DNA of 64,000 nt from Campylobacteraceae bacterium (GTDB lineage Bacteria > Campylobacterota > Campylobacteria > Campylobacterales > Sulfurovaceae): contig JALVXD010000216.1 in NCBI GenBank assembly GCA_027038295.1, forward strand, positions 14,804 to 78,803. Direction: 5' to 3'. The notes under the pieces were generated by a model. That model was not told where the DNA came from and ran no database searches. It saw nothing but the letters and a program-made list of their open reading frames with translations. The position numbers and the translations under genes are program-made. The first letter of the stretch is position 1. Each line of letters opens with the position of its first letter. Positions 37 to 58,683 of this stretch are shown one piece after another.

Positions 37-1194
37 TTACTCAAAAGAGTCAAGATAGCACATAACCTCATCAGCACTCCCTTCAAAAACAATAGGCATT
101 TCACTCTTTTCTATCTGATAATCATACATAGGGTCATAATACTCTCTTAAAAGTATCTCTATCCACCCTTTGTGTTGTTCCAGTTTTCCTGTGCGTTCTT
201 GTTCTAAAAATGCCTCGCTAAATGCTATTGTAATCATACTATAACGCTCTAAGCCCAAACGCTTTTTAATACGCTCTAGCCCTTGACTGGCATCGTTAAA
301 CCACATTTTTTCAGATTCGTCACCATAACAAGTTTTATAATGCTTTAGTGCATCACTTACATACTCTTGAAAGGTTATCTCTACACGCTCTTTCATGGGC
401 GTATGCAGTAGAATAAGTTTTCCTTTTCTAAAGTTGTCATAGAGAGGTTTAGGGATGTTAATCTTTCCTATGTTTCGGCTCTCATCTTCGATGACAATAT
501 GCTGATGGTTTTGCTCGGCATATTTAATGAGTGCAAACCCCAGTGCGTCTTCAAAGTCTATCTGTGCAGGTTGTGCTGAGATAAAGTTACCAAAAGAAGA
601 GCCTCTATGGTTTGCCAGTCCCTCTAGGTCGATGCTGTTGGAGAGTTTTTGCAGTAAAATAGTTTTTCCACTCCCCGTACGCCCCCCAATAATGAGCGTG
701 TTAGACGCTTTGATTATCTTCTCACTCTCTTGCATTAAAAAGGCACGAAAGGCTTTGTATCCACCTTTTAAACGAGGTATGGTAATGCCTACTTCTTGAA
801 GCCATGCTTGGGAAATTTGTGAACGCTGTCCTCCTCTAAAACAATAAAGGTACGCATTAGGGTGTTGTTTTACAAACTCTACCCACGCTTGAACACGCTC
901 ATGTTTCACAGGTTCTACCAGCTCTTTACCAAGCTGTACGGCAGAGGCGTTTCCCTGCTCTTTGTAGCGTATGCCTATGAGGTGACGCTCTTTGTCATTC
1001 ATAAGTGGTAGGTTAACAGCCGTAGGGAATGAACCTTTTAGAAACTCAACAGAAGCACGAACATCTATAAGGGGTCTGTTTTCAAGTACCATGCTACAAA
1101 AATCATCAGTTAAAGGTAAATCCAGTTTATTAATGGCTTCTATCTCATCTATCGTACCAAGGTCACTAAACTCCTCTTTGTTAGATGACTGCAA
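37..1194 (-). CDS. mnmH: tRNA 2-selenouridine(34) synthase
   Basis: Rhodanese domain ([10 protein letters not shown]...YCFRGGQRS) plus P-loop ([24 protein letters not shown]); directly downstream of selD. The ORF track starts at 1242; an in-frame TTG at 1194 with GGAG 9 nt upstream is my preferred start, but the start is uncertain. Confidence 0.93.
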
Positions 1195-2212
1195 TAATAT
1201 GTTCTCCACGTGCAACCGTCTCACCAATGCTTTTGAGTTCAAGTCCTGCTTTTTTAGTCAGTGCTAAAAATGCCTCTACACTCTCTTTTCGCACAGCACA
1301 CAGTAGTCCACCAGAAGTTTGAGCATCACATAAAATGTCTTGTTGTTCAGCTGTCATAGGGCTTATCTTATGACCATAACTTTCAAAGTTACGTTTGGTA
1401 CCTCCTGGCACACACTCCATTGCCCAGTACTCTTTTACTTTAGGAAGCAGTGGTACATCTTCAAAACGTACTTGTGCCGAGATGTTACTCCCCTCACATA
1501 TCTCAGTTAAGTGTCCAAGCAGACCAAAACCTGTAACATCAGTAATAGCAGTCACTCCCTCAAGTGCAGAGATTTCTGCTCCTATTTTGTTCAGAGTACA
1601 CATCGCTTCTACAGCAGGGTCTATGTCGCCTACGGCTATCTTATTGTTTTTTTGTGCTGTGGTTAAGATGCCTATACCTAAAGGTTTGGTCAAAAAGAGT
1701 TCACAATCTACCTCTGCTGTGTCGTTTTGTTTAAGGTTTTTGTTTTCTACCAAACCTGTCACGGCAAGACCAAAGATAGGCTCAGGAGAGTCAATACTAT
1801 GCCCACCTGCTAAGGGTATTCCTGCTTCCTCACAGACAGAACGCCCACCATCAATCACCAAACGAGCCACTTCATCACTCAACTTTTTTACAGGCCAACC
1901 AAAGATTGCTATCGCCATTAAAGGCTTACCACCCATGGCATATATATCGCTAATGGCATTGGTCGCAGCAATACGTCCAAAAGTAAAAGGGTCATCAACA
2001 ATGGGCATAAAAAAGTCTGTTGTCGAGAGTACCGAAGTACCGTTACCCAAATCAAAAGCTGCTGCATCATCTTTAGTAGAGTTACCCACAAGTAAGTTGG
2101 GGTAGCTAATGGTCTCTCTTGCCGATTTAAGCATGTTGTCGAGTTGTTTAGGTGATATTTTACAACCACACCCTGCCCCGTGGCTGTATTGTGTTAATTT
2201 TATATTTTCCAT
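1181..2212 (-). CDS. selD: selenide, water dikinase (selenophosphate synthetase), Cys-type
   Basis: N-terminal [11 protein letters not shown] (active-site codon is TGT, not TGA); [28 protein letters not shown] and DAQTSGGLL motifs. Confidence 0.97.
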
Positions 2213-47024: not shown

Positions 47025-49340
47025 ATGACAAACCTCTATGAAAAAATTGGACTCTTTTACCTCGGTCGAGACATCGACAAAACCACGCAAAAACCTAGTG
47101 AAGCACTTACACTACTAAAAAATAAAAACTTTACAACTCATGCTGCTATTATCGGTATGACAGGTTCTGGTAAAACTGGTTTGGGTATTGGTCTCATAGA
47201 AGAGGCTGCCATAGACAATATTCCTTCCATTCTTATCGACCCAAAGGGAGACATGGGAAACCTGCTTTTAACTGACCCTACTTTCAACCCCAAAAACTTT
47301 GAACCTTGGGTAGAAGATGAAGCAAGAAGCAAAGAGAAAGATGTTGCTACCTATGCAGCAGATATTGCAAGCATGTGGGAGCAGGGCATAGAACGTGACT
47401 TTCAAGACAGAAGCCGTGTAGCCAAACTTCATGCCGTAGAGAAGACCATCTATACCCCTGGGAGTTCTTCTGGTATCTCTGTCAATATTTTAGGTTCACT
47501 TGAAGCACCACCAACTGAAGTTTTAAACGATTCAGATACCTTTGCCTCGTACCTAAAGAGTACTGTATCATCTCTTCTATCTCTAGTAAAAATAGAAGCA
47601 GACCCTGTAAGCTCTAAAGAGTATCTCCTTATCGCACAGATATTAGCCAACAGATGGATGTCAGGGAAAAGTATCTCACTAGAAGAGCTTATAGGTGCTA
47701 TTATCTCTCCTTCATTTGACAAAATAGGTGTTTTACCTTTGGAGGCTTTTTACCCTCAAGATAAACGTTTTGCATTGGCTACTAAGTTCAACTCTATTAT
47801 TGCTTCTCCTACATTTTCATCATGGCTACAAGGTGAAGATTTGGACATTCAAAAGCTACTTTACGATGAAAATGGTAAAGCAAAAGTAGCCATATTCTCC
47901 ATTGCTCATCTCTCTGATGCCGAACGTATGTTTTTTGTAACACTCTTACTTAACAAATACATCGCATGGATGAGAAGACAGTCAGGAACATCAGCACTTA
48001 AAGCCCTACTCTATATGGATGAGATTTACGGCTATTTCCCACCAAGTAAAAACCCACCATCAAAAGAGCCTATGCTTCTACTCCTTAAACAAGCACGTGC
48101 CTTTGGTGTGGGTGTCATACTCAGTACACAAAACCCTGTTGACTTGGACTACAAGGGGCTTTCAAACATTGGTACATGGTTTATAGGTCGTCTACAAACA
48201 GCACAAGATATTGAGCGTGTTATCGACGGTCTTGGTGGTAAAGTGGGAGCCTCTTACTCCAAGTCAGAAATCAAAGATTTACTTGCCAACCTGCAAAAAC
48301 GTACATTCTTTTTAAAATCTGCCCACCTTGATGACATACGAGTCTTTTCTACTCGCTGGGTTATGTCTTACCTAAAAGGACCTCTAAAATCTGCTGAAAT
48401 CTCAAAACTCATGGCTGATAAAAAGTCTGCAACACCTCAAACTCTTATGAGTAAAACTGTCAAAGAGGATGGTTTTGAAAGTTTTGTAAACATCGACAAA
48501 AGTATCGACCAAAAATTTGCCATGGACGTTACAGGTCAAAACAACTTTAGAGCCACCCTACAAGGAAAAGTAGAACTTCATTACTTTAACGCATCCAAAA
48601 ACATAGATGAAAATGAAACCCTCTGTCTAAACCTTGAACTTTATGAAGATGAGAAGTTAGATTGGGACAATGCCCAAAATATGGATGAGTGTCCACAATT
48701 TTCCGACTCAGAACCAAGCAATGCTTCCTTTGCTCCTTTAAGTGATGATGTATCTTCTGATAAAAATTTAAAAAAGACCAAAAAGTCATTGGTTGACTGG
48801 GTCTACCGAAACAAACGACTAGAGACCTTCAAATGTACCTCTCCACGTCTCTCATCTCTACCTTATGAGAGTTTGGGTGACTTTAAAGTACGCATAAAAG
48901 ACCAACTAGACGACAAAAAAGAGCAAGAGATAGATAAACTTCAAGAGCATTATGAGAAGAAAGAGAAAACCCTTCTAAAACGCCTACAAAGAGCCCAAGA
49001 CAAAGTAGCGAAAGAAGAAGCCGATGCAAGTAAGTCTATGGTTGACACAGGCATTGCCATTTTAGGAGCTCTATTTGGTCGTAGCTCTACAGCTAAATTG
49101 GGTCGTGCCTTCTCAAAAGGAAGTCGTGCCTACAAAGAACGTGGAGACATAAGTAGAGCCCAAGAGGCATTGGCTGAAATACATGAAGAGATAGAACTTT
49201 TAGCAGAAGAACTAGAAGATAAGATAGATGAACTCTCTTTAAAATACGACGTAGAGAATGTAACCATTCAAGAGTCTGCCATGAAACCTAGAAAAAGTGA
49301 CATTCATGTCGATGAACTCTCTTTGGTTTGGGTGGTTTAA
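47025..49340 (+). CDS. HerA/FtsK-superfamily (DUF87/DUF853-like) P-loop ATPase with C-terminal coiled coil
   Basis: HAAIIGMTGSGKT, LIDPKGD, LYMDEIYG, KQARAFGVGVILSTQNPVDLD. Confidence 0.85.
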   Translation: MTNLYEKIGLFYLGRDIDKTTQKPSEALTLLKNKNFTTHAAIIGMTGSGKTGLGIGLIEEAAIDNIPSILIDPKGDMGNLLLTDPTFNPKNFEPWVEDEARSKEKDVATYAADIASMWEQGIERDFQDRSRVAKLHAVEKTIYTPGSSSGISVNILGSLEAPPTEVLNDSDTFASYLKSTVSSLLSLVKIEADPVSSKEYLLIAQILANRWMSGKSISLEELIGAIISPSFDKIGVLPLEAFYPQDKRFALATKFNSIIASPTFSSWLQGEDLDIQKLLYDENGKAKVAIFSIAHLSDAERMFFVTLLLNKYIAWMRRQSGTSALKALLYMDEIYGYFPPSKNPPSKEPMLLLLKQARAFGVGVILSTQNPVDLDYKGLSNIGTWFIGRLQTAQDIERVIDGLGGKVGASYSKSEIKDLLANLQKRTFFLKSAHLDDIRVFSTRWVMSYLKGPLKSAEISKLMADKKSATPQTLMSKTVKEDGFESFVNIDKSIDQKFAMDVTGQNNFRATLQGKVELHYFNASKNIDENETLCLNLELYEDEKLDWDNAQNMDECPQFSDSEPSNASFAPLSDDVSSDKNLKKTKKSLVDWVYRNKRLETFKCTSPRLSSLPYESLGDFKVRIKDQLDDKKEQEIDKLQEHYEKKEKTLLKRLQRAQDKVAKEEADASKSMVDTGIAILGALFGRSSTAKLGRAFSKGSRAYKERGDISRAQEALAEIHEEIELLAEELEDKIDELSLKYDVENVTIQESAMKPRKSDIHVDELSLVWVV

Positions 49341-49389
49341 AACTTCTCCTGTATAATATTTATAGATAAATAATACTACAGGAAATAAT

Positions 49390-50721
49390 ATGAATTTACG
49401 AATAACACTACTAACCTCTACTCTTCTACTCTTTACAGCTTGTGGGGGTGGAGGCACTTCAAGCTCTAAATATCAAGATAGTAAAATGAGTTGCCAACCT
49501 GCAACAAGTGTAAATATTTTTTCTAAGACAGATATAGAGACTTTTTCCATAGATAACCCTATAAACGAACCAAAAATTTTATTAGCAAACAATCCAACTC
49601 TTTCTACTACTCCTTTAGCCTTTGACAAAAAAAGTATTTATGAACTTTTTCAAACAGAGTACTACTGGGCAAATGAAACAGTTGACAACTTTGACTACTC
49701 CAACTACACCTCACCTCAAGCACTCATTAATGATTTGAAAAACAGTAAAGACCGATGGAGCTTTGCTATGACCAAAGAAGATTATGGGAACCTTACTTCC
49801 CAAAAGTCTGGTGGTTTTGGTTTTGCCTGTCAAGATGTCACCACTGGATGTCATGTTACCTATGTAAGAATAGACTCACCTGCTGACAAAATTGGTCTTA
49901 AACGCTCTGATGTTATTACGAAAATCAATGGCAAAAAAGCTACGCATGACGCTATATATAAAACGGGTAAGGAGCTAGAAAAAAGAGCAACGCTTACAGT
50001 TAACCGTAAAAACACCCATGAAACATGTAATGGTTCCGTAACTCCTCGTGACTACACCTATAAAGTCGCCAAAGGAGAAGTTATTCACACCCCTAAAAAT
50101 GAAAAAGTAGGATACCTTCGCCTAGACTCTTTTATGGGTGCAGAGAGTATTGTAAATCAAATAGATGAAGCCTTCAACAATTTTAAAAAAGAGCGTATCA
50201 AAAAACTGGTCATCGACCTTCGTTATAATGGTGGGGGTTCTGTCACCGTTGCCTCTAAACTTTTAGACAAACTCTCTACGGCACACATCAACCAAGAGCA
50301 ATTTACTCTAGCATGGAATGATGACTACAAAAAGAACAATTCAACCTACCGTTTTGAAAAAGATAGTAACTCATTAGATTTAGAGCAGATTCTCTTTCTA
50401 ACTACACAAGGTTCAGCCTCTGCTTCAGAACTAGTTATCTCTGCTATGAAACCCTACCTAAGCGAAGATAATATTGTAATCATAGGTGATAAAACACATG
50501 GTAAACCAGTAGGTATGGGTGGAAAAACCGATGTAAACTACTACTACTTTCTCATAAACTTTGTAGTCAAAAACTCTCTTGGTTTTTATGATTATTTTGA
50601 GGGGCTACCCGTAACATCAGGCTGTGACATAAAAGACGACCCTTTTCATGAAATGGGTGACCCAAAAGAAAGTATGCTAAAAGCTGCCCTACACTATGTT
50701 GACACAGGAAGTTGTAAATAG
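49390..50721 (+). CDS. S41-family peptidase lipoprotein with PDZ domain
   Basis: Lipobox LFTAC; PDZ (VTYVRIDSPADKIGLKRSDVI); VIDLRYNGGG, SASASELV (Ser), GKPVG (Lys). Confidence 0.9.
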   Translation: MNLRITLLTSTLLLFTACGGGGTSSSKYQDSKMSCQPATSVNIFSKTDIETFSIDNPINEPKILLANNPTLSTTPLAFDKKSIYELFQTEYYWANETVDNFDYSNYTSPQALINDLKNSKDRWSFAMTKEDYGNLTSQKSGGFGFACQDVTTGCHVTYVRIDSPADKIGLKRSDVITKINGKKATHDAIYKTGKELEKRATLTVNRKNTHETCNGSVTPRDYTYKVAKGEVIHTPKNEKVGYLRLDSFMGAESIVNQIDEAFNNFKKERIKKLVIDLRYNGGGSVTVASKLLDKLSTAHINQEQFTLAWNDDYKKNNSTYRFEKDSNSLDLEQILFLTTQGSASASELVISAMKPYLSEDNIVIIGDKTHGKPVGMGGKTDVNYYYFLINFVVKNSLGFYDYFEGLPVTSGCDIKDDPFHEMGDPKESMLKAALHYVDTGSCK

Positions 50722-51570
50722 TTAAACAATAGTCGGAGCAAAAGCCTTAGTACTTATGCTAACCTTTTCTCCGACCTTTAACCCTTTGGCTTCCATAGGG
50801 GAAACCACCACTTCCACCAACTGCTGACCAATAGCCACTATGGCTACAAACATGACATCTACTTTTATGAGTTCAAGCAACTCCCCTTCAAAAGAGAATT
50901 TTTGAGAACCATTTGTTTTTAACAACACCTCTTTAGGCAGACCATCATCAACAACTCTCCCTTGCTCTAAAACCACTACACGAGAAGATAAACGGTAAAT
51001 CTCCGAAGGGTCATGACTCACCATAATGGTTGTGGTTCCAAACTCCTTGTGCAGTGTCAAAATCTCATTTTGAAGTTTGGTACGCATAGCAGGGTCAAGA
51101 GCAGAGAGAGGTTCGTCCATAAGTAGTAGTTTAGGTCGGTTCATTAAGGCTCTACAGAGACTCACTCGCTGTTTTTGTCCTCCACTTAGTGTGCTGGGTC
51201 GTCTTTTGGCTAACTCGCTCAATTCGGTCACTTCTAGGAGCTGTTTTGCCAACGCTTTGTCGTTTTGCACAAAAAGCAGGTTCTCTTCTACGGTCATGTT
51301 TGGAAACAGTGCATAATCTTGAAATACAAACCCAATCTTTCGTTTTTGGGGAGCCAAGCTAAACTTCTCATCTTGCCACACTTCATCACCTATGTGAATA
51401 ACTCCCGATGAACTCTCAAGCCCTGCCAATATTCGTAAAAGCGTTGTCTTCCCACTTCCACTCTTACCTGCCAACGCCAAAAAATCACCCTCGTTGATTT
51501 CAAGGTTGACATTTAAGTCCATCTCACCCTTTGCACCGTGGAGTTTTTTATTTATATCTATTTTAATCAT
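50722..51570 (-). CDS. modC: molybdate ABC transporter ATP-binding protein
   Basis: GKSGSGKT, LSGGQKQRV, LLMDEP, C-terminal TOBE; follows modB. Confidence 0.9.
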   Translation of the reverse strand: MIKIDINKKLHGAKGEMDLNVNLEINEGDFLALAGKSGSGKTTLLRILAGLESSSGVIHIGDEVWQDEKFSLAPQKRKIGFVFQDYALFPNMTVEENLLFVQNDKALAKQLLEVTELSELAKRRPSTLSGGQKQRVSLCRALMNRPKLLLMDEPLSALDPAMRTKLQNEILTLHKEFGTTTIMVSHDPSEIYRLSSRVVVLEQGRVVDDGLPKEVLLKTNGSQKFSFEGELLELIKVDVMFVAIVAIGQQLVEVVVSPMEAKGLKVGEKVSISTKAFAPTIV

Positions 51571-52226
51571 TAGTGAAACCCACCTATCTTTTTCTGCGTA
51601 TGATTAAAGACATAGACCGACAAAAGCACCACAAAACTTATAAGCACCATAATAGCCGAATAGATATGAGCCGTACCATAATCCATTATCTCCACCATTT
51701 CATAAATGGCAATAGAAGCGACCTTAGTCTCATCAGGAATGCTCCCACCTATCATCAATACCACCCCAAACTCTCCAACCGTATGAGCAAAGGTAATAAT
51801 AAGAGCCGTAAGCAGAGCAGGTTTTATATTTGGCAGTGCCACTTTTAAAAGCGTGGTCAATCTACTTTTTCCACTCAAATAAGAAGCTTCTAGCATGTTT
51901 TTGTTCAACCCTTCAAACCCACCTTGCAAAGGCTGAACCATAAAAGGCAAAGAGTAAAAACAAGAGGCAATCACCAACCCCGTAAAACTAAAAGCCAAAT
52001 CGACCTTTGCAAAGAGTATCAAAATATAAAATCCCAAAACCGATGGAGGCAAAACAATAGGCAAAGCCGTAATAGCCTCTAAAAATGGCTTGGCTTTTGA
52101 TCTGCTTTGAGACAGATACCATGCCAAAGGTAGACTAATTATAAAAAGAATAAGCGTGGTTAATCCTGCCAGTTTAAAGGACAGTATGAACGGGGTTAGG
52201 TCTAGGGTTTTTAGGGTTTCTAGCAT
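51570..52226 (-). CDS. modB: molybdate ABC transporter permease
   Basis: [38 protein letters not shown]. Confidence 0.95.
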
Positions 52227-52266
52227 TTTAGTTTCCGTCCATTATCTTTTTGACTTTCAAAAACCC

Positions 52267-52360
52267 GTAGGGTGCTATTTTCCAACGCACCTTTAATTGG
52301 CATAAAGAAAAAATTTGTTTTTGATTTGAATAATTGGTGCGTTAGAAAACGGCACCCTAC
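52267..52360. repeat. REPIN-like element, family A (inverted pair of GTAG-GGTGC..GCACC REPs)
   Basis: gtagggtgctattttccaacgcacc (52267-52291, +) and gtagggtgccgttttctaacgcacc (52360-52336, -). Confidence 0.85.
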
Positions 52361-52368
52361 AAAAGCTC

Positions 52369-53025
52369 TCATACCAACCCCAACTCACAAGCCATATCTC
52401 TTTTCAATTTAGAAAATGGCTCTTTAGATAAATCTGCATTATCATCTATCAAAGAGAAAATATCTTGCTTTATTTGTTGATAGGGTATGCCTGTTAAATC
52501 TTGCAACTCTTTTAATCTACTTTCAGGGTAAAGCTCTGCATTTTTTATCATCTCAAGGACTATATCTTTGTGGGCTTGGTAGCGTTCGTTTAGTTTGAAA
52601 GTTTTTATATATTTTTCATATTCGTTTGAGTAGTTTTCTTTTAGAGGTATGTCGATGTCATCTTTTGATTTTATGTTTAGGTCTTTACAGTTTTTATGTA
52701 AAAAGAGTTTGAATTTTACTTTTTCATCAAATTGAAAAGATTTTAAATAAGGGTTGGTAGACTCCAACTCTTTATCTCCATAGAACGGTGTACTTCCTTT
52801 TATTTTAGAATTACAAACAGAACATGACGGAATCAAATTAAAAATAGAGAGTGCTAAATATGGGTAGCTTCCTTTATCAATAAAATGGTCTAATGTAAAT
52901 TTATTTTTACTATTCTCTTCTTCATCATACTCATCATGAAACGTACACTCAAATCTAGGCGAAAAATTAAACCCCTGCTTATGAATATTTTTATAATCTT
53001 CAACCCATAGATAGACAAGTTCCAT
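52369..53025 (-). pseudogene. chimeric remnant: AAA-ATPase N-terminus fused in frame to an HNH-nuclease C-terminal half (Septu PtuA/PtuB-like)
   Basis: aa 1-37 (MELVYLWVEDYKNIHKQGFNFSPRFE) resemble the first strands of ABC/AAA_21 defence ATPases but no Walker A follows. aa ~43 onward give LDHF...LALSIFNLIPSCSVCNSKIK (HNH) without the upstream CxxC. Confidence 0.68.
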
Positions 53026-53066
53026 ACTTTCCCTTTTTTCTTTATGAAGTTATTATATCAAAATTT

Positions 53067-53234
53067 GTAGGGTGCTGTTTTCCAACGCACCTTCAATTGG
53101 CATAAATAAAAAATCTCTTTTTAGGTTTAACTAATTGATGTGTTAAAAACAATACTCTTATATTTTTAAGCCTTTCGGCGAAACTTCTCTTTATGCCAAT
53201 TTCATTTAACGGTGCGTTGAAAACAGCACCCTAC
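53067..53234. repeat. REPIN-like element, family A, second locus
   Basis: gtagggtgctgttttccaacgcacc (53067-53091, +), a decayed inner arm near 53136-53160, and gtagggtgctgttttcaacgcacc (53234-53211, -); shares the inner aattggcataaa with the first locus. Confidence 0.85.
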
Positions 53235-53243
53235 AACATATTA

Positions 53244-53633
53244 TCACCCACAAACAAAAACCTCACTCCCCTTAATTAAAACCATGACATCATCACCCAC
53301 ACTTAACCCCATGCTTAACGTCGCTTCTACCGTCAGCAGACACTCCAAAGAAAATCTCTCTAACTCTACTTGAACAGAACTTAATAAATCACCCTTGTCA
53401 ATGGCTGTCACTTTGGCTGTTAACTGGTTGACAATGCTGAGTTCCCCTGTGAAGTTTTTAGCTAAAGAGATGTTGGTTGATTTCACGCTTAACTCTACAG
53501 TAGAGCCTATTTTAATGGTGTCTCGTAATTCTAAACTGACGACTTTTATACGTTGACAACCCAGTTTACAAGTGACAATGTGTAGCTTGTCATTTTTGTC
53601 AATCTTTTCTACTTTTACACTCAATTTGTTCAT
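53244..53633 (-). CDS. TOBE/Mop-domain molybdenum-binding protein
   Basis: Two TOBE units (MNKLSVKVEKI...VKST; IVNQLTAKVTAI...GDDVMVLIKGSEV); inside the mod operon. Confidence 0.88.
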   Translation of the reverse strand: MNKLSVKVEKIDKNDKLHIVTCKLGCQRIKVVSLELRDTIKIGSTVELSVKSTNISLAKNFTGELSIVNQLTAKVTAIDKGDLLSSVQVELERFSLECLLTVEATLSMGLSVGDDVMVLIKGSEVFVCG

Positions 53634-54373
53634 GGAATGATGTACCCGAACTCTTTAAATATCTGCTCTGCTTTTTTAGAAAAGATAAAAGCATAAAAGG
53701 CTAACGCCTCTGGCGACTTTTCACCTTGTTTTAAAATGACAATGCCTTGGTCTATAGGGGTGTAGAGTTTTGGGTCAACATCTGCCCAGTTTTTACCTTT
53801 TTTGAAGTGAGACATTTGAGGGCTAAAGAGAGAAGACTTTGCGATAAAACCTATGTCAGTAGCTTTGGTGGCGTAGGTTACGGTTTGAGAAATAGACTCA
53901 CCAAAGACAAATTTATTTTTTATATCATTATAGACTTTTGCATTTTCTAAAGCCTCTTTTGTCGCTATGCCATAAGGGGCTGTTTTAGGATTGGCGACGG
54001 CTATTTTTTTGACTTCATCACTTTTTAGTAACTCCATCACCTTTGTAAAGTCTCTTTTTTGTTTAGACAAATACGCCAATGAACCTTGGGCGTAAACCAA
54101 AGGTCTAGTTACTGCAAAATCTTCTTTGTAGAGTGTTTCGGGGTAAAGCATGTTTGCTCCCATGAAGATGTCGTAAGGGGCTCCATGTTTTATTTGAGCT
54201 GTGAGTTTCCCTGTGCTTCCTAAGATGACTTGCACTTTAGTGTCGGGGTAGAGTCGGTTAAACTCTTTTTTTAGGTCATTTATGGCGTAACTCACATTGG
54301 CTGCTACGGCTACTTTTATGGTTTTGGCTTGGGTAAATAGGGTTAATAACAGTGCTACTATTAAAAATTTCAT
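53630..54373 (-). CDS. modA: molybdate ABC transporter substrate-binding protein
   Basis: Signal peptide MKFLIVALLLTLFTQA, VAVAANVS, GSTGKL...GAPYDIF, ANPKTAPYG, GESISQ; start at the ATG at 54373. Confidence 0.95.
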   Translation of the reverse strand: MKFLIVALLLTLFTQAKTIKVAVAANVSYAINDLKKEFNRLYPDTKVQVILGSTGKLTAQIKHGAPYDIFMGANMLYPETLYKEDFAVTRPLVYAQGSLAYLSKQKRDFTKVMELLKSDEVKKIAVANPKTAPYGIATKEALENAKVYNDIKNKFVFGESISQTVTYATKATDIGFIAKSSLFSPQMSHFKKGKNWADVDPKLYTPIDQGIVILKQGEKSPEALAFYAFIFSKKAEQIFKEFGYIIP

Positions 54374-54383
54374 TTTTTTCCTT

Positions 54384-54490
54384 GTAGGTTTGACCATGTC
54401 AAACGTTAAATCTCACTTTAATCTAAATGGAGATTTGTTATTTTTTAATCTGCTATGCTTGGTTTTGACGTTTGACATGGTCAAACCTAC
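54384..54490. repeat. REPIN-like element, family B (GTAG-GTTTGAC-cat-GTCAAAC), copy 1
   Basis: REP at 54384-54404 (+) and 54490-54470 (-). Confidence 0.88.
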
Positions 54491-54635
54491 GATTTTCTTA
54501 CATATGTCTATAGATAAAAGTATAACGTTATATGGTTTAGAAAACAATACTATATCACCCTTATGCTATAATCACAGCAATAGATGCAAGATGTGAATAA
54601 ATCTCTTGCAACCCCAATAATGAAGAAGAAAAATA

Positions 54636-55577
54636 ATGAGAATCAACAAATATATCTCGCACAATACCAAGTATTCACGTCGTGAAGCAGACAAGCTTAT
54701 AGAAGCTGGAGAAGTTTTCGTGAATCGTAAAAAGATAGAAGATTTCGCCTACGACGTTCAAGAGGGCGATGAAGTCTCCATAAAAGGTCTTCACGTCAAA
54801 GAGCGAACAGAACTCACCATGATAGTCTTTAACAAACCAAAAGGGACACTGGTCACCCGTAAAGACGACCGTGGACGAACCACCATTTTTCACAAGCTCC
54901 CTGGGAAGTTTAGACACTTTATCCCTATTGGGCGTTTGGACTTTGCTTCTGAGGGGCTTCTACTTTTGACCGACTCGCCAAAAGTAGCAGAGGTTATGAT
55001 GCAAAGTGGGCTAGACCGTACCTACAACATTAAAATAGACAAAGCCTTTTCAAACGAAATGGAGGAGGCGATGCGTGAAGGTCTTATTTTGGACGATGCC
55101 CGTGCAGGTGGACATGAGAAGTCTAAAATTTATGGCATGGAGTTTGAGCCTTTTGTGCATTATGAAGTACGTAACGCAGGAGCAAACTTTACCAAGCTAC
55201 GTGTGACCATCGCAGAGGGTAAAAACCGTGAGCTTCGTCGTTTCTTTGGACACTTTGAAGCCAATGTACTTGACCTTAAAAGGGTAGAGTTTGGAGGGAT
55301 TCAGCTTAACAACTTACCAACAGGAAAAACACGTTTCTTTACGCGTCGTGAGTATGATGACCTACACAAGTACCTAAAAATGATACGCCAAGTAGAAGCA
55401 CAAGAGAAAAAAGAGGAAGAGGACAGAGTAAAAGCTGAACGCCTTCGTGAAAAAAGACAAAACCAAACAGAAGACCAAAGAAGACGTGCTGAATCGGCTG
55501 AGAAGAAGAGACTCAAAGAGATTAAGCAGAAAAACTCTAACAAAAACAACCCAAACAAAAAAAATAAGAAGTTCTAA
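54636..55577 (+). CDS. RsuA/RluB-family pseudouridine synthase with charged C-terminal tail
   Basis: S4 domain (MRINKYIS...SRREADKLI), FNKPKG, IGRLDFASEGLLLLTD, EGKNRELRR. Confidence 0.92.
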   Translation: MRINKYISHNTKYSRREADKLIEAGEVFVNRKKIEDFAYDVQEGDEVSIKGLHVKERTELTMIVFNKPKGTLVTRKDDRGRTTIFHKLPGKFRHFIPIGRLDFASEGLLLLTDSPKVAEVMMQSGLDRTYNIKIDKAFSNEMEEAMREGLILDDARAGGHEKSKIYGMEFEPFVHYEVRNAGANFTKLRVTIAEGKNRELRRFFGHFEANVLDLKRVEFGGIQLNNLPTGKTRFFTRREYDDLHKYLKMIRQVEAQEKKEEEDRVKAERLREKRQNQTEDQRRRAESAEKKRLKEIKQKNSNKNNPNKKNKKF

Positions 55578-56755
55578 TGTCTTTGGCTCTAAAGTACCGA
55601 CCGACCACGCTCGATGAGATTGTGGGGCAAGAGCATCTTTTAGAGCAAGGTCAAGTCTTGCGAACCCTTATAGAGAAGAAGAGTTTACTTCACTCTTTTT
55701 TTTATGGACCTCCAGGTTGTGGAAAAACTACTTTGGCAAGGGTCATAGCCAAAGAGTTACAAGCTCCCTTTTTTGAACTCAATGCCACCACACTTAAAGT
55801 AGAAGATTTACGAAAAATCTTTAAAAGCTATGCCAATGCTTTAGAGAAACCTCTAATATTTATAGATGAAGTGCATAGACTCTCTAAAAATCAACAAGAG
55901 GTTTTGCTTCCGTTTATGGAGAACAACTCGGCACTCATCATTGGGGCATCGACAGAAAACCCCTACTACTCCCTCACCTCTGCCATGCGTTCACGTTCTC
56001 ACCTCTTTGAGCTAAAGCATGTGAATAACTCTGCTCTGCATCAACAACTTGACAAAATAGTCGAAAAAGAAGTTATTCACATAGCACAAGATGCAAAAGA
56101 TTTTTTAGTTAGCTCCTCCTCTGGCGATGTTCGTGCCATGTTGAACCTTTTAGAAACTGCTGTGACTTTAGGCTCAGAGATAAGCTTAGAAAAACTAAAG
56201 TCCATTCGCCCCCATGCCCTACAAGCAGGTAGTTCTGAAGCCGACTCACACTACGACCTAGCCTCTGCGATGATAAAGTCCATACGTGGTTCAGACATCG
56301 ATGCCAGTGTTTACTACCTAGCACGTTTGGTTAATGGTGGAGAACCTGCTGAGTTTATAGCACGACGTTTGTGCATCTTAGCCAGTGAAGACATAGGCAA
56401 TGCCAACCCTCATGCTTTAAACCTAGCCTCTTCTACTTTAAATATAGTAAAGATGATTGGTTACCCTGAAGCTCGAATCTCTTTATCACAGTTGGTTATC
56501 TATTTGGCTTCTTCACCCAAGTCAAACTCTGCTTATATGGCGATAAACTCTGCACTTCAAGCCATACAAGCTGGAGAGATTCACCCCATACCTGCAAACA
56601 TAAAACATGACAAGGTTAATTACTTGTACCCACATAATTTTAACGGTTGGGTTGAACAGAGTTACATGAGTAAAAATATGAAGTTTTATGAGAGTTCTAA
56701 AATAGGATTTGAAAAGACGTTGGATGAGTGGATAAAGAAGATTAAAAACACGTAG
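55577..56755 (+). CDS. rarA: replication-associated recombination protein A
   Basis: RPTTLDEIVGQ, GPPGCGKTT, FIDEVHR, IKSIRGSD, ASEDIGNA. Confidence 0.95.
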   Translation: MSLALKYRPTTLDEIVGQEHLLEQGQVLRTLIEKKSLLHSFFYGPPGCGKTTLARVIAKELQAPFFELNATTLKVEDLRKIFKSYANALEKPLIFIDEVHRLSKNQQEVLLPFMENNSALIIGASTENPYYSLTSAMRSRSHLFELKHVNNSALHQQLDKIVEKEVIHIAQDAKDFLVSSSSGDVRAMLNLLETAVTLGSEISLEKLKSIRPHALQAGSSEADSHYDLASAMIKSIRGSDIDASVYYLARLVNGGEPAEFIARRLCILASEDIGNANPHALNLASSTLNIVKMIGYPEARISLSQLVIYLASSPKSNSAYMAINSALQAIQAGEIHPIPANIKHDKVNYLYPHNFNGWVEQSYMSKNMKFYESSKIGFEKTLDEWIKKIKNT

Positions 56756-56856
56756 GTGTGACCATGTCACACGCCAAAATGAATGGGGATAATTTCACAA
56801 TTGTTATCCCCATAAAGTAAAAACTGAGATTTGACGTTTGACATGGTCAAACCTAC
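56752..56856. repeat. REPIN-like element, family B, copy 2 (between convergent rarA and typA)
   Basis: GTAG-GTGTGAC-cat-GTCACAC at 56752-56772 (+) and GTAG-GTTTGAC-cat-GTCAAAC at 56856-56836 (-). Confidence 0.88.
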
Positions 56857-56865
56857 AGTATTGTT

Positions 56866-58683
56866 TTATTTACTATTTTTCTTGTCTCTAGCAGCTCTTT
56901 TACGTACAACTGGGTCAAGAGATTTTTTACGAATTCTTATAGATATAGGTGTAATCTCAATAAGCTCATCATCTTCAATCCACTCCATTGCAGAGTCAAG
57001 TGTAATCTCTCTAGGCTTAACAAGTTTAACAGCTTCATCTGTACCTGAAGTTCTCATGTTGGTCAATGCTTTCCCTTTAAGTGGGTTAACATCAAGGTCA
57101 CCAGGTCTTGCTGACTCACCAATAACCATTCCTGAGTAAACTTTTTCTTGTGCAGAAATAAACATAATACCACGTGCTTGAAGGTTAAAGATAGAGAAAG
57201 CAACGGCTTCACCATCATCCATAGAAACCAATGCTCCTGGAGTTCTTGATTCAACACTACCAGAGTATGCTCTGTATTCTAAGTAAGAGTGATTCATGAT
57301 ACCTTCACCTTTAGTGTCGGTAAGGAACTCATTTCTAAACCCAATAAGACCACGTGCAGGAATTTCAAACTCTAATCTTACTGTACCATCTGGCATTGGG
57401 TTAAGAGAAGTCATGTTCGCTTTTCTTTTTCCAAGTTTCTCAATAGCAACCCCTTGGAACTCTTCTGGAACATCAACAACTAAATGTTCAAATGGCTCCA
57501 TTTTAACACCATTCTCTTCTTTAGTTACAACTTCTGGACGAGCCAACATAAACTCGAAACCTTCACGTCTCATGTTTTCAGCCAAAATACCAATTTGAAG
57601 TTCACCCCTACCTGATACTTTAAATGAAGCATCATCCATTGGCTCCATTCTCATTGCGATGTTTGTCTCCATCTCTTTTTCAAGACGCTCTCTAATTTTA
57701 TTAGAAGTTACGTGTTTACCTTCTTGTCCAGCTAATGGTCCGTTATTTACAGACATAATAACTGAAAGTGTAGGCTCTTCAACGTGCATTGGGTCAAGTG
57801 CTACAGGATTTGATTTATCACAAACAGAATCTCCAACATCAATATCTGAAAAACCAGCGATGGCTACAATATCTCCTGCTTCTGCCTCTTCAATATCAAT
57901 TCTATCAAGACCTTTAAACCCAATAAGTTTAGAAACTCTTGATTTAGATTTAGAACCATCTGCTTTCACAAGTAGATACTCATCACCTTTTTTAATTTTA
58001 CCATTAAAAATACGTGTAATACCAATACGACCAACAAAGTTATCAGAGTCAAGTGTAAATACTTGTGCCTGAGTATCGTTATCTGGTGAACCTTTTGGGT
58101 AAGGAACATGTTCAATAATTGCATCAAAAAGAGGAACCATGTCTTTATTTTCATCTTCCATCTCATGTTTTGCATAACCATCTCTAGCTGCTGCATATAA
58201 AACAGGGAATTCAAGTTGATCTTCATTCGCATCGAGTGCAACCAGAAGGTCAAAAACTTCGTCCATAACTCTATCGGGGTCTGAACCTTCTTTATCAATT
58301 TTATTAATAACAACTACAGGAATAAGTCCAAAACCAATCGCTTTTTTCAAAACAAATTTGGTTTGAGGCATAACACCTTCTTGTGCATCTACAAGTAACA
58401 ATACGCCATCTACCATTTTAAGCACACGCTCAACTTCACCACCAAAATCGGCGTGACCAGGAGTGTCAATAATATTAATCTTATGGTCACCATAAGTAAT
58501 GGCTGTATTTTTAGAAAGAATGGTAATTCCTCTTTCCATTTCAATTTCGTTAGAGTCCATGGCTCTCTCTTGCACCTCTTCGTGTGCAGCGTAAGTTCCA
58601 GACTGTTGAAGAAGTTGGTCAACAAGCGTTGTTTTTCCGTGATCAACGTGAGCGATTACGGCGATATTTTTGATTTTTTGCAT
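56866..58683 (-). CDS. typA: translational GTPase TypA/BipA
   Basis: [45 protein letters not shown]. Confidence 0.98.

What the first reader, a model, noticed from the sequence alone, without database searches (positions are those of the whole stretch)
52267..53234. Collapsed ATPase-HNH (Septu-like) defence cassette inside the molybdate operon, bracketed by REPINs
Seen: an AT-rich 218-aa ORF with its own RBS splits modA-TOBE from modB-modC. Its first ~37 aa look like the start of an AAA/ABC defence ATPase, but by aa ~43 (junction near 52915) it is already in an HNH motif (LDHF...NLIPSCSVCNSKIK) with no Walker A and no N-terminal Zn-binding CxxC. Family-A REPINs flank it on both sides. Established: Septu (PtuA ATPase + PtuB HNH) and retron-associated ATPase/HNH pairs are two-gene anti-phage modules. 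Inference: a two-gene cassette entered the operon between REP elements, then an in-frame deletion of most of the ATPase and the HNH N-terminus fused the remnants. This would be a snapshot of defence-gene turnover at a REP-bounded slot, or a minimal stand-alone nuclease.
Basis: partly seen in the sequence, partly recalled or inferred. Interest (0 to 1): 0.7.

Follow-up and report, generated by a model that had tools for sequence, protein, structure and literature searches.

The report
Deletion-fused remnant of Septu-like defence pair
A 218-codon gene inside a molybdate-transport operon is the leftover of a two-gene anti-phage system (ATPase plus HNH nuclease), after a deletion of about 1.9 kb between two identical 11-base stretches joined the start of one gene to the end of the other; it is most likely a dead relic in a slot where defence genes come and go.

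Summary

- **The ORF.** ORF 52369..53025 (-) has about 30% G+C and sits between the TOBE gene and modB. Residues 1-42 match only the first 42 positions of a ~600-aa ATPase model (PADLOC PDC-M62A, E 2e-17). Residues 36-216 match the last ~190 positions of its partner HNH model (PDC-M62B, E 9e-44).
- **Relatives.** In 32 of the 39 related loci an intact 385-711-codon ATPase ORF with the same N-terminus directly precedes a ~300-aa HNH gene; the other seven contigs end too early to show the ATPase start. A syntenic relative carries the whole pair in the same TOBE-modB slot.
- **The junction.** It lies at 52919-52929, an 11-nt microhomology (TATGATGAAGA). Unitigs from four metagenome runs in three studies span it, so it is not a chimera.
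- **What is lost.** The whole ATPase, the HNH N-terminal helical domain and the first CxxC.
- **Rarity.** Only this lineage has the 218-aa form (2 of the 120 best homologues).
- **Constraint.** Two fused alleles differ by 4 synonymous and 4 non-synonymous changes, which shows no constraint.
- **Flanks.** The flanking palindromes are real, dispersed REPIN-like elements.

The mod operon is repeatedly interrupted by defence cargo across Campylobacterota. Most likely this is a non-functional relic. Interest is moderate.

The parts
52267..52360 (.). REPIN-like palindromic element, copy 1 (two inverted GTAG-headed REP units), between the fused ORF and modB
   Evidence: hairpin -23.7 kcal/mol, z -5.6; the family is dispersed in related MAGs
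52369..53025 (-). 218-aa chimeric ORF: ATPase head fused in frame to HNH tail
52930..53025 (-). Codons 1-32: the 5' end of a PDC-M62A (Septu-like ABC/AAA_15-type) ATPase gene. It stops before Walker A, which in intact relatives lies at about residues 60-70 (GKNGSGKS)
52919..52929 (-). Deletion junction: 11-nt microhomology TATGATGAAGA shared by the ATPase parent (codons 33-36) and the HNH parent (codons about 116-119)
   Evidence: HNH homology starts at 52929. Intact-ATPase unitigs match down to 52919 and then read ...GATGGTAAGTTAAAAGAT, as does contig L147
52369..52918 (-). HNH tail: the beta-beta-alpha-Me core (D46 H47, N63, C68xxC71 N72) plus the C-terminal helical region. It corresponds to residues about 120-301 of the 301-aa homologue
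53027..53060 (-). The cassette's own expression signals: extended -10 TGATATAAT (53060-53052) and RBS AAGGGAAAG (53035-53027). The same signals precede the intact ATPase in L147 and the fused ORF in L042
   Evidence: read; not detected by the -35/-10 scan
53065..53236 (.). REPIN-like palindromic element, copy 2 (longer, with 18-nt perfect termini), between the TOBE gene and the fused ORF
   Evidence: -43.8 kcal/mol, z -9.5. About 10-fold excess unitig depth in metagenomes. Homology to L147 starts exactly at its outer end
53244..54397 (-). modA (53630-54397) and the TOBE/Mop gene (53244-53633): the upstream half of the interrupted mod operon
50722..52226 (-). modB (51570-52226) and modC (50722-51570): the downstream half of the operon

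Best explanation
The ORF is a deletion-derived relic of a two-gene Septu-like defence operon: a PADLOC PDC-M62 pair, with a ~600-aa ABC-type ATPase followed by a ~300-aa HNH nuclease. That operon sat in a hypervariable slot of the mod operon, between the TOBE gene and modB, in a hydrothermal-vent Sulfurovum-like Campylobacterota lineage.

A single illegitimate recombination or slippage event occurred between two 11-nt direct repeats (TATGATGAAGA). One repeat lay at codons 33-36 of the ATPase gene and the other at codons about 116-119 of the HNH gene. The event removed about 1.9 kb and happened to leave the frame open.

The cassette's own extended -10 and RBS, and read-through from the mod promoter, probably still drive a 218-aa chimeric protein. 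That protein lacks the whole ATPase, the HNH N-terminal helical domain and the first CxxC of the zinc knuckle. In the characterised relatives (Septu and retron Ec78 PtuAB), toxicity and defence need the ATPase-HNH complex and both activities. The remnant is therefore most likely inactive as a defence system and as a nuclease, and is on its way to being lost.

- **Shown:** the origin of both parts, the junction, its reality in DNA, its rarity, and cargo turnover at the slot.
- **Inferred:** the microhomology mechanism, expression, and loss of function.
For: - **Origin of the two halves.** PADLOC split match. ATPase-HNH adjacency in 32 of 39 related loci. The syntenic relative L002 carries modA-TOBE-[cargo]-ATPase-HNH(301 aa)-REP-modB-modC. 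Window 53033..52932 equals the ATPase 5' end there (89%), and window 52929..52363 equals HNH codons 116-301 (94%).
- **Junction.** Intact-ATPase unitigs in runs X1, X2, X3 and X9, and contig L147, share the window sequence down to 52919. They then continue as ATPase (DGKLKD[DN]C...GKNGSGKS). HNH homology begins at 52929.
- **Not a chimera.** Junction-spanning unitigs: X1 52840-52986 (depth 64), X2 52840-52948 (depth 88), X3 52891-52973 (depth 295), X8 52793-52948. The same fusion is in ENA contig L042 from another study.
- **Rarity.** Only P0001 and P0002 among the 120 best homologues have the ATPase head. 114 are 297-349 aa.
- **History of selection.** The HNH tail against L002 gives dN/dS 0.08, so it was shaped as a functional gene. 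The two fused alleles differ by 4 synonymous and 4 non-synonymous changes, P = 0.2 under neutrality with the observed transition bias.
- **No partner nearby.** There is no other PDC-M62A-like ATPase in the 64-kb window.
- **Structure prediction.** The full-length homologue gives a confident N-domain (pLDDT about 90) and HNH core (about 86). The fused protein gives pLDDT 42, with the core at about 30, from nearly the same alignment (31 homologue rows against 29).
- **Literature.** PtuA or PtuB alone is not toxic; PtuAB needs both activities; PtuB binds PtuA through its C-terminal helices (PMC12819146).
Against: - The ORF is intact in two alleles that differ at 1.2% of their nucleotides, with no stop or frameshift, and keeps its promoter-like box and RBS.
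- The catalytic DH, N and second CxxC are all retained.
- A C27-x2-H30 contributed by the ATPase head lies roughly where the lost CxxC was, and could in principle rebuild a zinc site.
- The C-terminal helical region, the PtuA-binding part in PtuB, is retained. A PtuA-like ATPase encoded elsewhere in the genome, outside the window, could in principle partner it.
- The AlphaFold confidence drop is weak evidence.
- No expression data for this allele could be obtained.
Confidence: 0.8

Rival explanations
1. The chimera is a functional, ATPase-independent minimal HNH nuclease, or a neo-functionalised effector or toxin, that selection keeps in place.
For: - Open frame, promoter-like box and RBS are kept.
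- The catalytic residues are kept.
- The fusion persists in two slightly diverged alleles.
- The NG dN/dS between them is 0.22.
- C27xxH30 sits at the place of the lost CxxC (sequence).
Against: - With the transition bias taken into account, 4 synonymous of 8 changes is not significant (P = 0.2).
- The architecture occurs in one lineage only.
- One zinc-knuckle half and a confidently folded ~100-aa N-domain are missing.
- The model of the chimera is unfolded.
- Pfam HNH scores below threshold (18 against 21.4 bits).
- In PtuAB the nuclease alone is inert (PMC12819146).
Confidence: 0.07
2. The remnant still works in trans: its retained C-terminal helical domain docks onto a PtuA/PDC-M62A-type ATPase encoded elsewhere in the same genome.
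For: PtuB binds PtuA through its C-terminal helices. That region is retained and is the best-conserved part. Intact ATPase genes with an identical 5' sequence co-occur in the same samples.
Against: There is no such ATPase in the 64-kb window. The co-occurring ATPases cannot be assigned to the same genome. The HNH core is probably destabilised.
Confidence: 0.05
3. The junction is an assembly artefact that joins two separate genes.
For: The ATPase 5' end and the REP elements are multi-copy in the community, with 5-50-fold excess depth. Such repeats are the places where assemblers make mistakes.
Against: Single unitigs cross the junction in four runs from three studies, at the same depth as the unique HNH tail. 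At least two independent assemblies give the same ORF. In X1 and X2 no other unitig at 90% or more identity covers the HNH tail.
Confidence: 0.01
4. The 218-aa form is a natural short member of the HNH family, not a deletion product.
For: A few shorter homologues are listed (188-262 aa).
Against: Those are contig-edge fragments, degenerate, or lack the ATPase head. The first 32 codons are 84-92% identical at protein or DNA level to ATPase gene starts.
Confidence: 0.01

Closest known systems
PADLOC candidate system PDC-M62 (two genes, A = ABC/AAA_15-type ATPase of about 600 aa, B = HNH of about 330 aa)
   Same: Both halves of the ORF match these models best (A: E 1.9e-17 over positions 1-42; B: E 8.7e-44 over positions 138-324). 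Relatives carry the complete pair with full-length matches (E 3.6e-90 and 2.6e-51).
   Different: Here only 32-36 codons of A and the C-terminal about 186 codons of B survive, fused into one ORF. PDC-M62 is itself an unpublished candidate without experimental validation (PMC11811056).
Septu (PtuA ATPase + PtuB HNH) and the PtuAB effector of retron Ec78/Eco7
   Same: Same gene order and domain logic. Intact relatives hit PtuA models (E 1.6e-20) and PtuB models (E about 3e-6 to 5e-14). The best PDB hit by sequence and fold is a retron I-A HNH protein of the TIGR02646 family (9n69_F). DefenseFinder Septu calls coincide with PDC-M62 calls.
   Different: NCBIfam PtuB scores 15.4 against a cut-off of 150, and TIGR02646 scores 16.8 against 52. 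The family has an extra ~100-aa helical N-domain absent from the ~200-230-aa PtuB proteins. Canonical PtuAB cleaves tRNA-Tyr and nicks DNA (PMC12819146, PMC13096335); nothing is known for this branch.
Defence-island hotspots between conserved core genes (e.g. Pseudomonas aeruginosa core defence hotspots, PMC10250203)
   Same: There is a fixed chromosomal position with alternative defence cargo in different strains: PDC-M62, PDC-S01, PDC-S02 fragment, AlbA_2/Schlafen-like protein, TA pairs, KAP-like NTPase, canonical Septu.
   Different: Here the slot lies inside a transport operon, at the TOBE-modB and modB-modC junctions. The cargo is nearly always co-directional with the operon. No mention of this for mod operons was found in the searchable library.
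REP/REPIN elements and their RAYT (Y1) transposases
   Same: Each unit has a GTAG head followed by a short hairpin. Units sit in inverted pairs 80-170 nt long. Copies are dispersed in related genomes. RAYT-like Y1_Tnp genes lie next to REP arrays and to the same cassette in a relative (L043).
   Different: No RAYT gene was found in the window, and mobility was not tested. The element next to the cassette's promoter is shared with a cassette at another locus (L147), which ordinary REPINs are not known to do.

Membership tests
PDC-M62 / Septu-like two-gene system | A complete ABC/AAA_15-type ATPase gene (Walker A, signature, Walker B; about 400-700 aa) | tested here: not met
   Only model positions 1-42 of 601 are matched. 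There is no Walker A. Intact relatives have GKNGSGKS at about residues 60-70. No other copy is in the window.
PDC-M62 / Septu-like two-gene system | A complete HNH partner gene immediately downstream | tested here: not met
   Only positions 138-324 of 328 of PDC-M62B are present. Residues 1-115 of the 301-aa homologue, including C105xxC108, are deleted.
PDC-M62 / Septu-like two-gene system | Descent from such a pair: both parts orthologous to adjacent genes in relatives | tested here: met
PDC-M62 / Septu-like two-gene system | Protection against phage | not testable with these tools
PDC-M62 is itself only a candidate.
Canonical PtuB (NCBIfam NF041761 / TIGR02646) | Score above the curated cut-off | tested here: not met
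   15.4 against 150 bits, and 16.8 against 52.15 bits.
HNH endonuclease (Pfam PF01844) | Profile match above the gathering score | tested here: not met
   18.0 against 21.4 bits, E 0.0032.
HNH endonuclease (Pfam PF01844) | Catalytic beta-beta-alpha-Me residues (D-H, N, N/H) and both CxxC zinc ligand pairs | tested here: inconclusive
   D46 H47, N63, C68xxC71 and N72 are present and lie in invariant columns. The first CxxC is absent; only C27 and H30 from the ATPase head are nearby.
REPIN (REP doublet mobilised by a RAYT) | Two REP units (GTAG head + hairpin) in inverted orientation forming a long hairpin | tested here: met
REPIN (REP doublet mobilised by a RAYT) | Many dispersed copies in the genome | tested here: inconclusive
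   There are only 2 copies in the 64-kb window. An exact 25-mer finds 23 stretches in related MAGs, up to 10 per MAG, often as inverted pairs. Depth in metagenomes is 5-10 times higher. The source genome as a whole is not available.
REPIN (REP doublet mobilised by a RAYT) | A cognate RAYT (Y1 transposase) gene in the genome | tested here: inconclusive
   Y1_Tnp genes are present in relatives L043 and L118. In L043 the gene is flanked by a different GTAG-headed REP family. One search lists ORFs for 49000-57000 only, and only the five mod-region proteins were put through a family scan. The rest of the window was not scanned for Y1_Tnp.

The most novel reading that the evidence does not exclude
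In this Sulfurovum-like clade the Septu-like cassette is part of a REPIN-bounded module that moves, or is exchanged, as a unit between loci. The REPIN ends act as the break or join points, possibly through a RAYT.

- The same REPIN + promoter + ATPase 5' block abuts three different left flanks, with homology starting exactly at the REPIN's outer end.
- One of those flanks may be a diverged TOBE end.
- A relative has the cassette bracketed by REP arrays next to a RAYT-like gene.

Together with the scars of one-sided illegitimate recombination, this would make the mod operon an intra-operon defence hotspot served by REP-mediated cassette exchange.
Probability: 0.12. Interest if true: 0.65.

Novelty: new member of a known kind. 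Interest (0 to 1): 0.35.

Why it matters
On its own the ORF is a decaying gene.

**Value as a worked example.** It shows at base-pair resolution how a defence system is lost. The likely mechanism is an 11-nt microhomology deletion. The parental forms still circulate in the same vent communities. The syntenic relative carries a second scar of the same kind.

**Annotation.** It is a warning for annotation pipelines. The ORF would be called an 'HNH endonuclease' or a defence gene although the system is gone.

**Wider context, possibly the more useful lead.**
- About a fifth of representative Campylobacterota mod operons are interrupted by co-directional cargo at the TOBE-modB or modB-modC junction.
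- Much of that cargo is defence-related.
- In the closest clade it is bracketed by REP elements.

Tried and rejected
- **Expression.** The only three RNA runs that hold any words of the ORF contain related cassettes and other REP copies, not this allele. Nothing can be said about expression.
- **Fold comparison.** The full-length model has no significant PDB match (best E 0.088). The top hits are retron and Septu HNH proteins. I treated this as consistent but not as evidence.
- **Profile search of PDB sequences.** Only a weak hit to a TIGR02646 protein (E 0.021).
- **Structure of the chimera.** pLDDT is 42. This was used only as a weak hint and was not searched further.
- **Constraint after the fusion.** Nei-Gojobori dN/dS of 0.22 looked suggestive. 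A test using the observed 7:1 transition bias gives P = 0.2, so I rejected it as evidence of selection.
- **Promoter scan.** It does not list the TGATATAAT box, because there is no -35. The box is reported from direct reading only.
- **Context of L042.** The sequence outside its REPs does not align with the window by BLAST. By eye its left flank resembles a diverged TOBE 3' end, so I did not count it as a separate locus.
- **REPs as an integral part of the cassette.** Rejected as a general rule. GTAG-headed REPs flank the cassette only in the closest clade (window, L002, L043, L075), not in Sulfurimonas or Arcobacteraceae loci.
- **Literature.** A search for mod-operon defence hotspots found nothing relevant.
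Full report
**What is in the window**

The interval 52267-53234 holds one ORF on the minus strand, 52369..53025, 218 aa with an ATG start. It lies between two related palindromic elements.
- G+C falls to 0.28-0.31 over the ORF, against 0.36-0.46 in the neighbouring genes.
- The neighbours form a molybdate transport operon on the same strand:
  - modA, 53630-54397 (SBP_bac_11, E 6e-46);
  - a 129-aa TOBE protein, 53244-53633;
  - modB, 51570-52226 (BPD_transp_1);
  - modC, 50722-51570 (ABC_tran).
- Upstream of the ATG, the minus strand reads ...CACCCTACAAATTTTGATATAATAACTTCATAAAGAAAAAAGGGAAAGTATG. That is an extended -10 (TGATATAAT, 53060-53052) and a purine-rich RBS.
- The simple promoter scan does not report the -10 box, because there is no -35.

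**The ORF is a chimera of two genes**

Against PADLOC models the protein splits cleanly.
- Residues 1-42 match positions 1-42 of the 601-position ATPase model PDC-M62A (E 1.9e-17).
- Residues 36-216 match positions 138-324 of the 328-position HNH model PDC-M62B (E 8.7e-44).
- Weaker hits go to PDC-M01B and PtuB.
- Pfam HNH is below threshold at 18 against 21.4 bits.
- NCBIfam PtuB and TIGR02646 are far below their cut-offs.

A search of 5.8 billion proteins gives 569 hits.
- Of the best 120, 114 are 297-349 aa.
- Only P0001 (the window protein) and P0002 (98% identical, from another sample) are 218 aa and begin MELVYLW.
- The four other short ones are a contig-edge fragment, a degenerate copy, and two shorter forms that still have the first CxxC. 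None carries the ATPase head.

In the alignment, full-length homologues carry CYYC about 21 residues before the invariant DH. The window protein has lost it. It keeps D46 H47, N63, C68xxC71 and N72.

**Relatives carry the intact pair, one of them in the same slot**

A scan of GTDB species representatives found 39 loci, from Sulfurovum, Sulfurimonas, Arcobacteraceae and others.
- In 32 of them the HNH gene is directly preceded by a 385-711-codon ATPase ORF. Its N-terminus (MELVYLWVE.YKNI..QGFNFSPRF...) matches residues 1-31 to 1-42 of the window protein.
- In the other seven, the contig ends before the point where the ATPase start would be.
- An intact example scores E 3.6e-90 on PDC-M62A and also hits PtuA models, E 1.6e-20.

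Locus L002 (GCA_027068975.1) is syntenic with the window over 20 kb. Its gene order is: modA, TOBE, a small gene pair that may be a toxin-antitoxin pair, a wHTH gene, an AlbA_2/HATPase_c_4 gene, the ATPase (interrupted only by a run of N), a 301-aa HNH gene, a REP element, modB and modC.

BLASTN against L002 gives:
- window 53033..52932 aligns to the ATPase start (89%);
- window 52929..52363 aligns to HNH codons 116-301 (94%);
- about 1.9 kb is missing in between.

PDC-M62 is an unpublished PADLOC candidate. Its calls largely coincide with DefenseFinder's Septu calls (PMC11811056). 'Septu-like' is therefore a fair label.

**The junction**

- HNH homology starts at 52929. This is seen against L002 and in a unitig of run X9 that leaves the window sequence exactly there.
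- In runs X1, X2, X3 and X9, other unitigs match the window from the ATPase side down to 52919. They then continue as ...GAT GGT AAG TTA AAA GAT (D G K L K D), which is how intact ATPases of this family continue.
- One metagenome contig, L147, shows such an intact gene. It reads MELVYLWVEDYKNIHKQGFNFSPRFECTFHDEYDEDGKLKDNCKLEII...GKNGSGKS.
- The two parents therefore share the 11 nt at 52929..52919, TATGATGAAGA on the coding strand.
- A deletion between these direct repeats, by slippage or illegitimate recombination, explains the fusion and its frame. This step is inferred.

**The junction is real**

- Single unitigs cross the junction in four runs from three studies:
  - X1, 52840-52986, depth 64;
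  - X2, 52840-52948, depth 88, no mismatch;
  - X3, 52891-52973, depth 295, no mismatch;
  - X8, 52793-52948.
- In X1 and X2 no other unitig at 90% or more identity covers the HNH tail.
- The fusion also appears in ENA contig L042 from a separate study.

**Is the chimera still under selection?**

- The HNH tail against L002 has dN/dS 0.08, similar to modC at 0.07. Most of its history was as a working gene.
- The two fused alleles differ at 8 of 657 positions, 4 synonymous and 4 non-synonymous.
- With the observed 7:1 transition bias, four or more synonymous changes are expected by chance with P = 0.2.
- The fusion is therefore recent, and there is no evidence for or against constraint.

**Expected activity**

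In the characterised relatives, PtuA or PtuB alone is not toxic. The PtuAB complex needs both the ATPase and the HNH activity. PtuB binds PtuA through its C-terminal helices (PMC12819146). Septu acts by cleaving tRNA-Tyr (PMC13096335, abstract).

The window has no other PDC-M62A-type ATPase.

AlphaFold results:
- The 301-aa homologue gives a confident helical N-domain (residues 10-100, pLDDT about 90) and HNH core (about 86).
- The chimera, with nearly the same alignment (31 homologue rows against 29), gives mean pLDDT 42, and about 30 over the core. This is only a hint.

One curiosity: the ATPase head contributes C27-x2-H30 near the place of the lost CxxC, with a spacing five residues shorter. 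The intact ATPase has the same residues, so this is not an adaptation that arose after the fusion.

I conclude that the ORF is most likely a non-functional relic (0.8).

**The flanking elements**

- Both elements are long hairpins: -23.7 kcal/mol with z -5.6, and -43.8 kcal/mol with z -9.5.
- Each is built from inverted units with a GTAG head and a short stem (GGTGC...GCACC). That is the classical REP/REPIN layout (own knowledge).
- They are the only two copies in the window.
- An exact 25-mer finds 23 stretches in related MAGs, often as inverted pairs 80-125 nt apart.
- Their unitig depth in the metagenomes is about ten times that of the flanks.
- RAYT-like Y1_Tnp genes occur in relatives.
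- In L043 one such gene sits next to an intact ATPase-HNH pair. That pair is bracketed by five and four copies of another GTAG-headed REP.
- REPs flank the cassette only in this clade, not in other genera.
- In L147 the same REP, -10 box, RBS and ATPase start follow a holB-like gene instead of TOBE. Homology to the window begins exactly at the REP's outer end.
- The REP therefore travels with the cassette's 5' end, rather than marking a pre-existing empty slot.

**The slot**

- Of the 80 mod loci fetched from species representatives, most of those that show both junctions have TOBE-(about 19 nt)-modB-(2-8 nt)-modC.
- About 17 have an expanded junction.
- Cargo at TOBE/modA-modB, in the clade closest to the window:
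  - L002: the island described above;
  - L075: PDC-S01 plus a PDC-M62 pair;
  - L078: PDC-S01, an AlbA_2-like protein and a PDC-S02 fragment;
  - L073: a small gene pair that may be a toxin-antitoxin pair (not scanned against any family library), plus a membrane protein;
  - L074: a KAP-like NTPase, a truncated DUF1016 gene and a REP doublet.
- Cargo at modB-modC:
  - L089: a canonical Septu, with PtuA at E 3e-83 and PtuB at E 4e-40;
  - L142: a small gene pair that may be a toxin-antitoxin pair (not scanned against any family library), plus an AAA_15 ATPase;
  - L117: RelE plus a Suv3-like helicase;
  - L118: a Y1 transposase;
  - L030 and L031: PDC-M62 pairs.

- Nearly all of this cargo is co-directional with the operon.
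- L002 also carries a second scar. The first 57-59 nt of an ATPase gene are joined, through the microhomology GGG(T/C)TTAAG, to a second copy of the TOBE 3' end. The same scar is seen as a unitig in run X9.
- This pattern fits island replacement by recombination that is homologous on one side and illegitimate on the other. That reading is an inference.

**Verdict**

- The object is a recent deletion relic of a known kind of system, so its own interest is moderate.
- The mod-operon hotspot and the REP association are the parts worth following up.

Noticed in passing
L002 6346-6461 (GCA_027068975.1, JALXFN010000102.1): A second deletion or recombination scar in the syntenic relative. The first 57-59 nt of a PDC-M62A ATPase gene (MEWVYLWVEDYKNIHKQGF) are joined through the microhomology GGG(T/C)TTAAG to a duplicate copy of the TOBE 3' end. 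The wHTH, AlbA_2, ATPase and HNH genes follow. The same joint appears as a unitig in run X9.
   Followed up: partly
L147 (JGI Ga0256831_1009844), about 290-495 in stored coordinates: The same REPIN, TGATATAAT box, RBS and an intact ATPase 5' end (92% identical to window 53235..52889) follow a holB-like gene, not TOBE. Homology begins exactly at the REPIN's outer end.
   Followed up: partly
L043 810-1660 and 4480-4750 (JGI 3300044576): A RAYT-like Y1_Tnp gene (912-1388, minus strand) lies next to an intact ATPase-HNH pair. The pair is bracketed by 5 upstream and 4 downstream copies of a REP, GTAGGGTGTTGT-N6-ACAACACC.
   Followed up: partly
L067-L146 (80 mod loci from GTDB representatives): About 17 of 80 Campylobacterota mod operons are interrupted at the TOBE/modA-modB or modB-modC junction. 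The cargo is mostly co-directional and often defence-related: canonical Septu in L089; PDC-S01 in L075 and L078; a possible TA pair plus an AAA_15 ATPase in L142; RelE plus a Suv3-like helicase in L117; a Y1 transposase in L118.
   Followed up: partly
L016 1-2221 (Sulfurimonas MAG PETN01000051.1): A PDC-M62 pair is followed directly by a 92-codon 5' fragment of modC and then by unrelated genes. It looks as if the cassette had carried a piece of modC to another place, or as if the operon had decayed.
   Followed up: no
window 54383-54499 and 56806-56865: A second palindromic repeat family (TGTAGGTTTGACCATGTCAAACGT...) has two copies. They bracket the rluB-like pseudouridine synthase and rarA/mgsA-like ATPase genes just upstream of modA.
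   Followed up: no
window 52936-52947 (codons 27-30 of the ORF): The ATPase head supplies C27-x2-H30 close to where the native HNH has C105-x2-C108. The intact ATPase in L147 has the same residues, so this is a coincidence of the parent sequence and not a later change.
   Followed up: partly
L042 1-78 (ENA ERZ940665, SRR4453772): The second fused allele has a left flank that BLAST does not align with the window's TOBE end. By eye it resembles a diverged TOBE 3' end (AAGTGTTTGTAATGATGT...TTTGTGGGG). Its right flank carries another REP type, also seen at L002 10950-10985.
   Followed up: partly
window 47025-49340: A 771-aa DUF87 (HerA-like) ATPase gene and, further on, a 547-aa protein with no family hit lie a few kb from the mod operon. 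They were not examined for a defence role.
   Followed up: no
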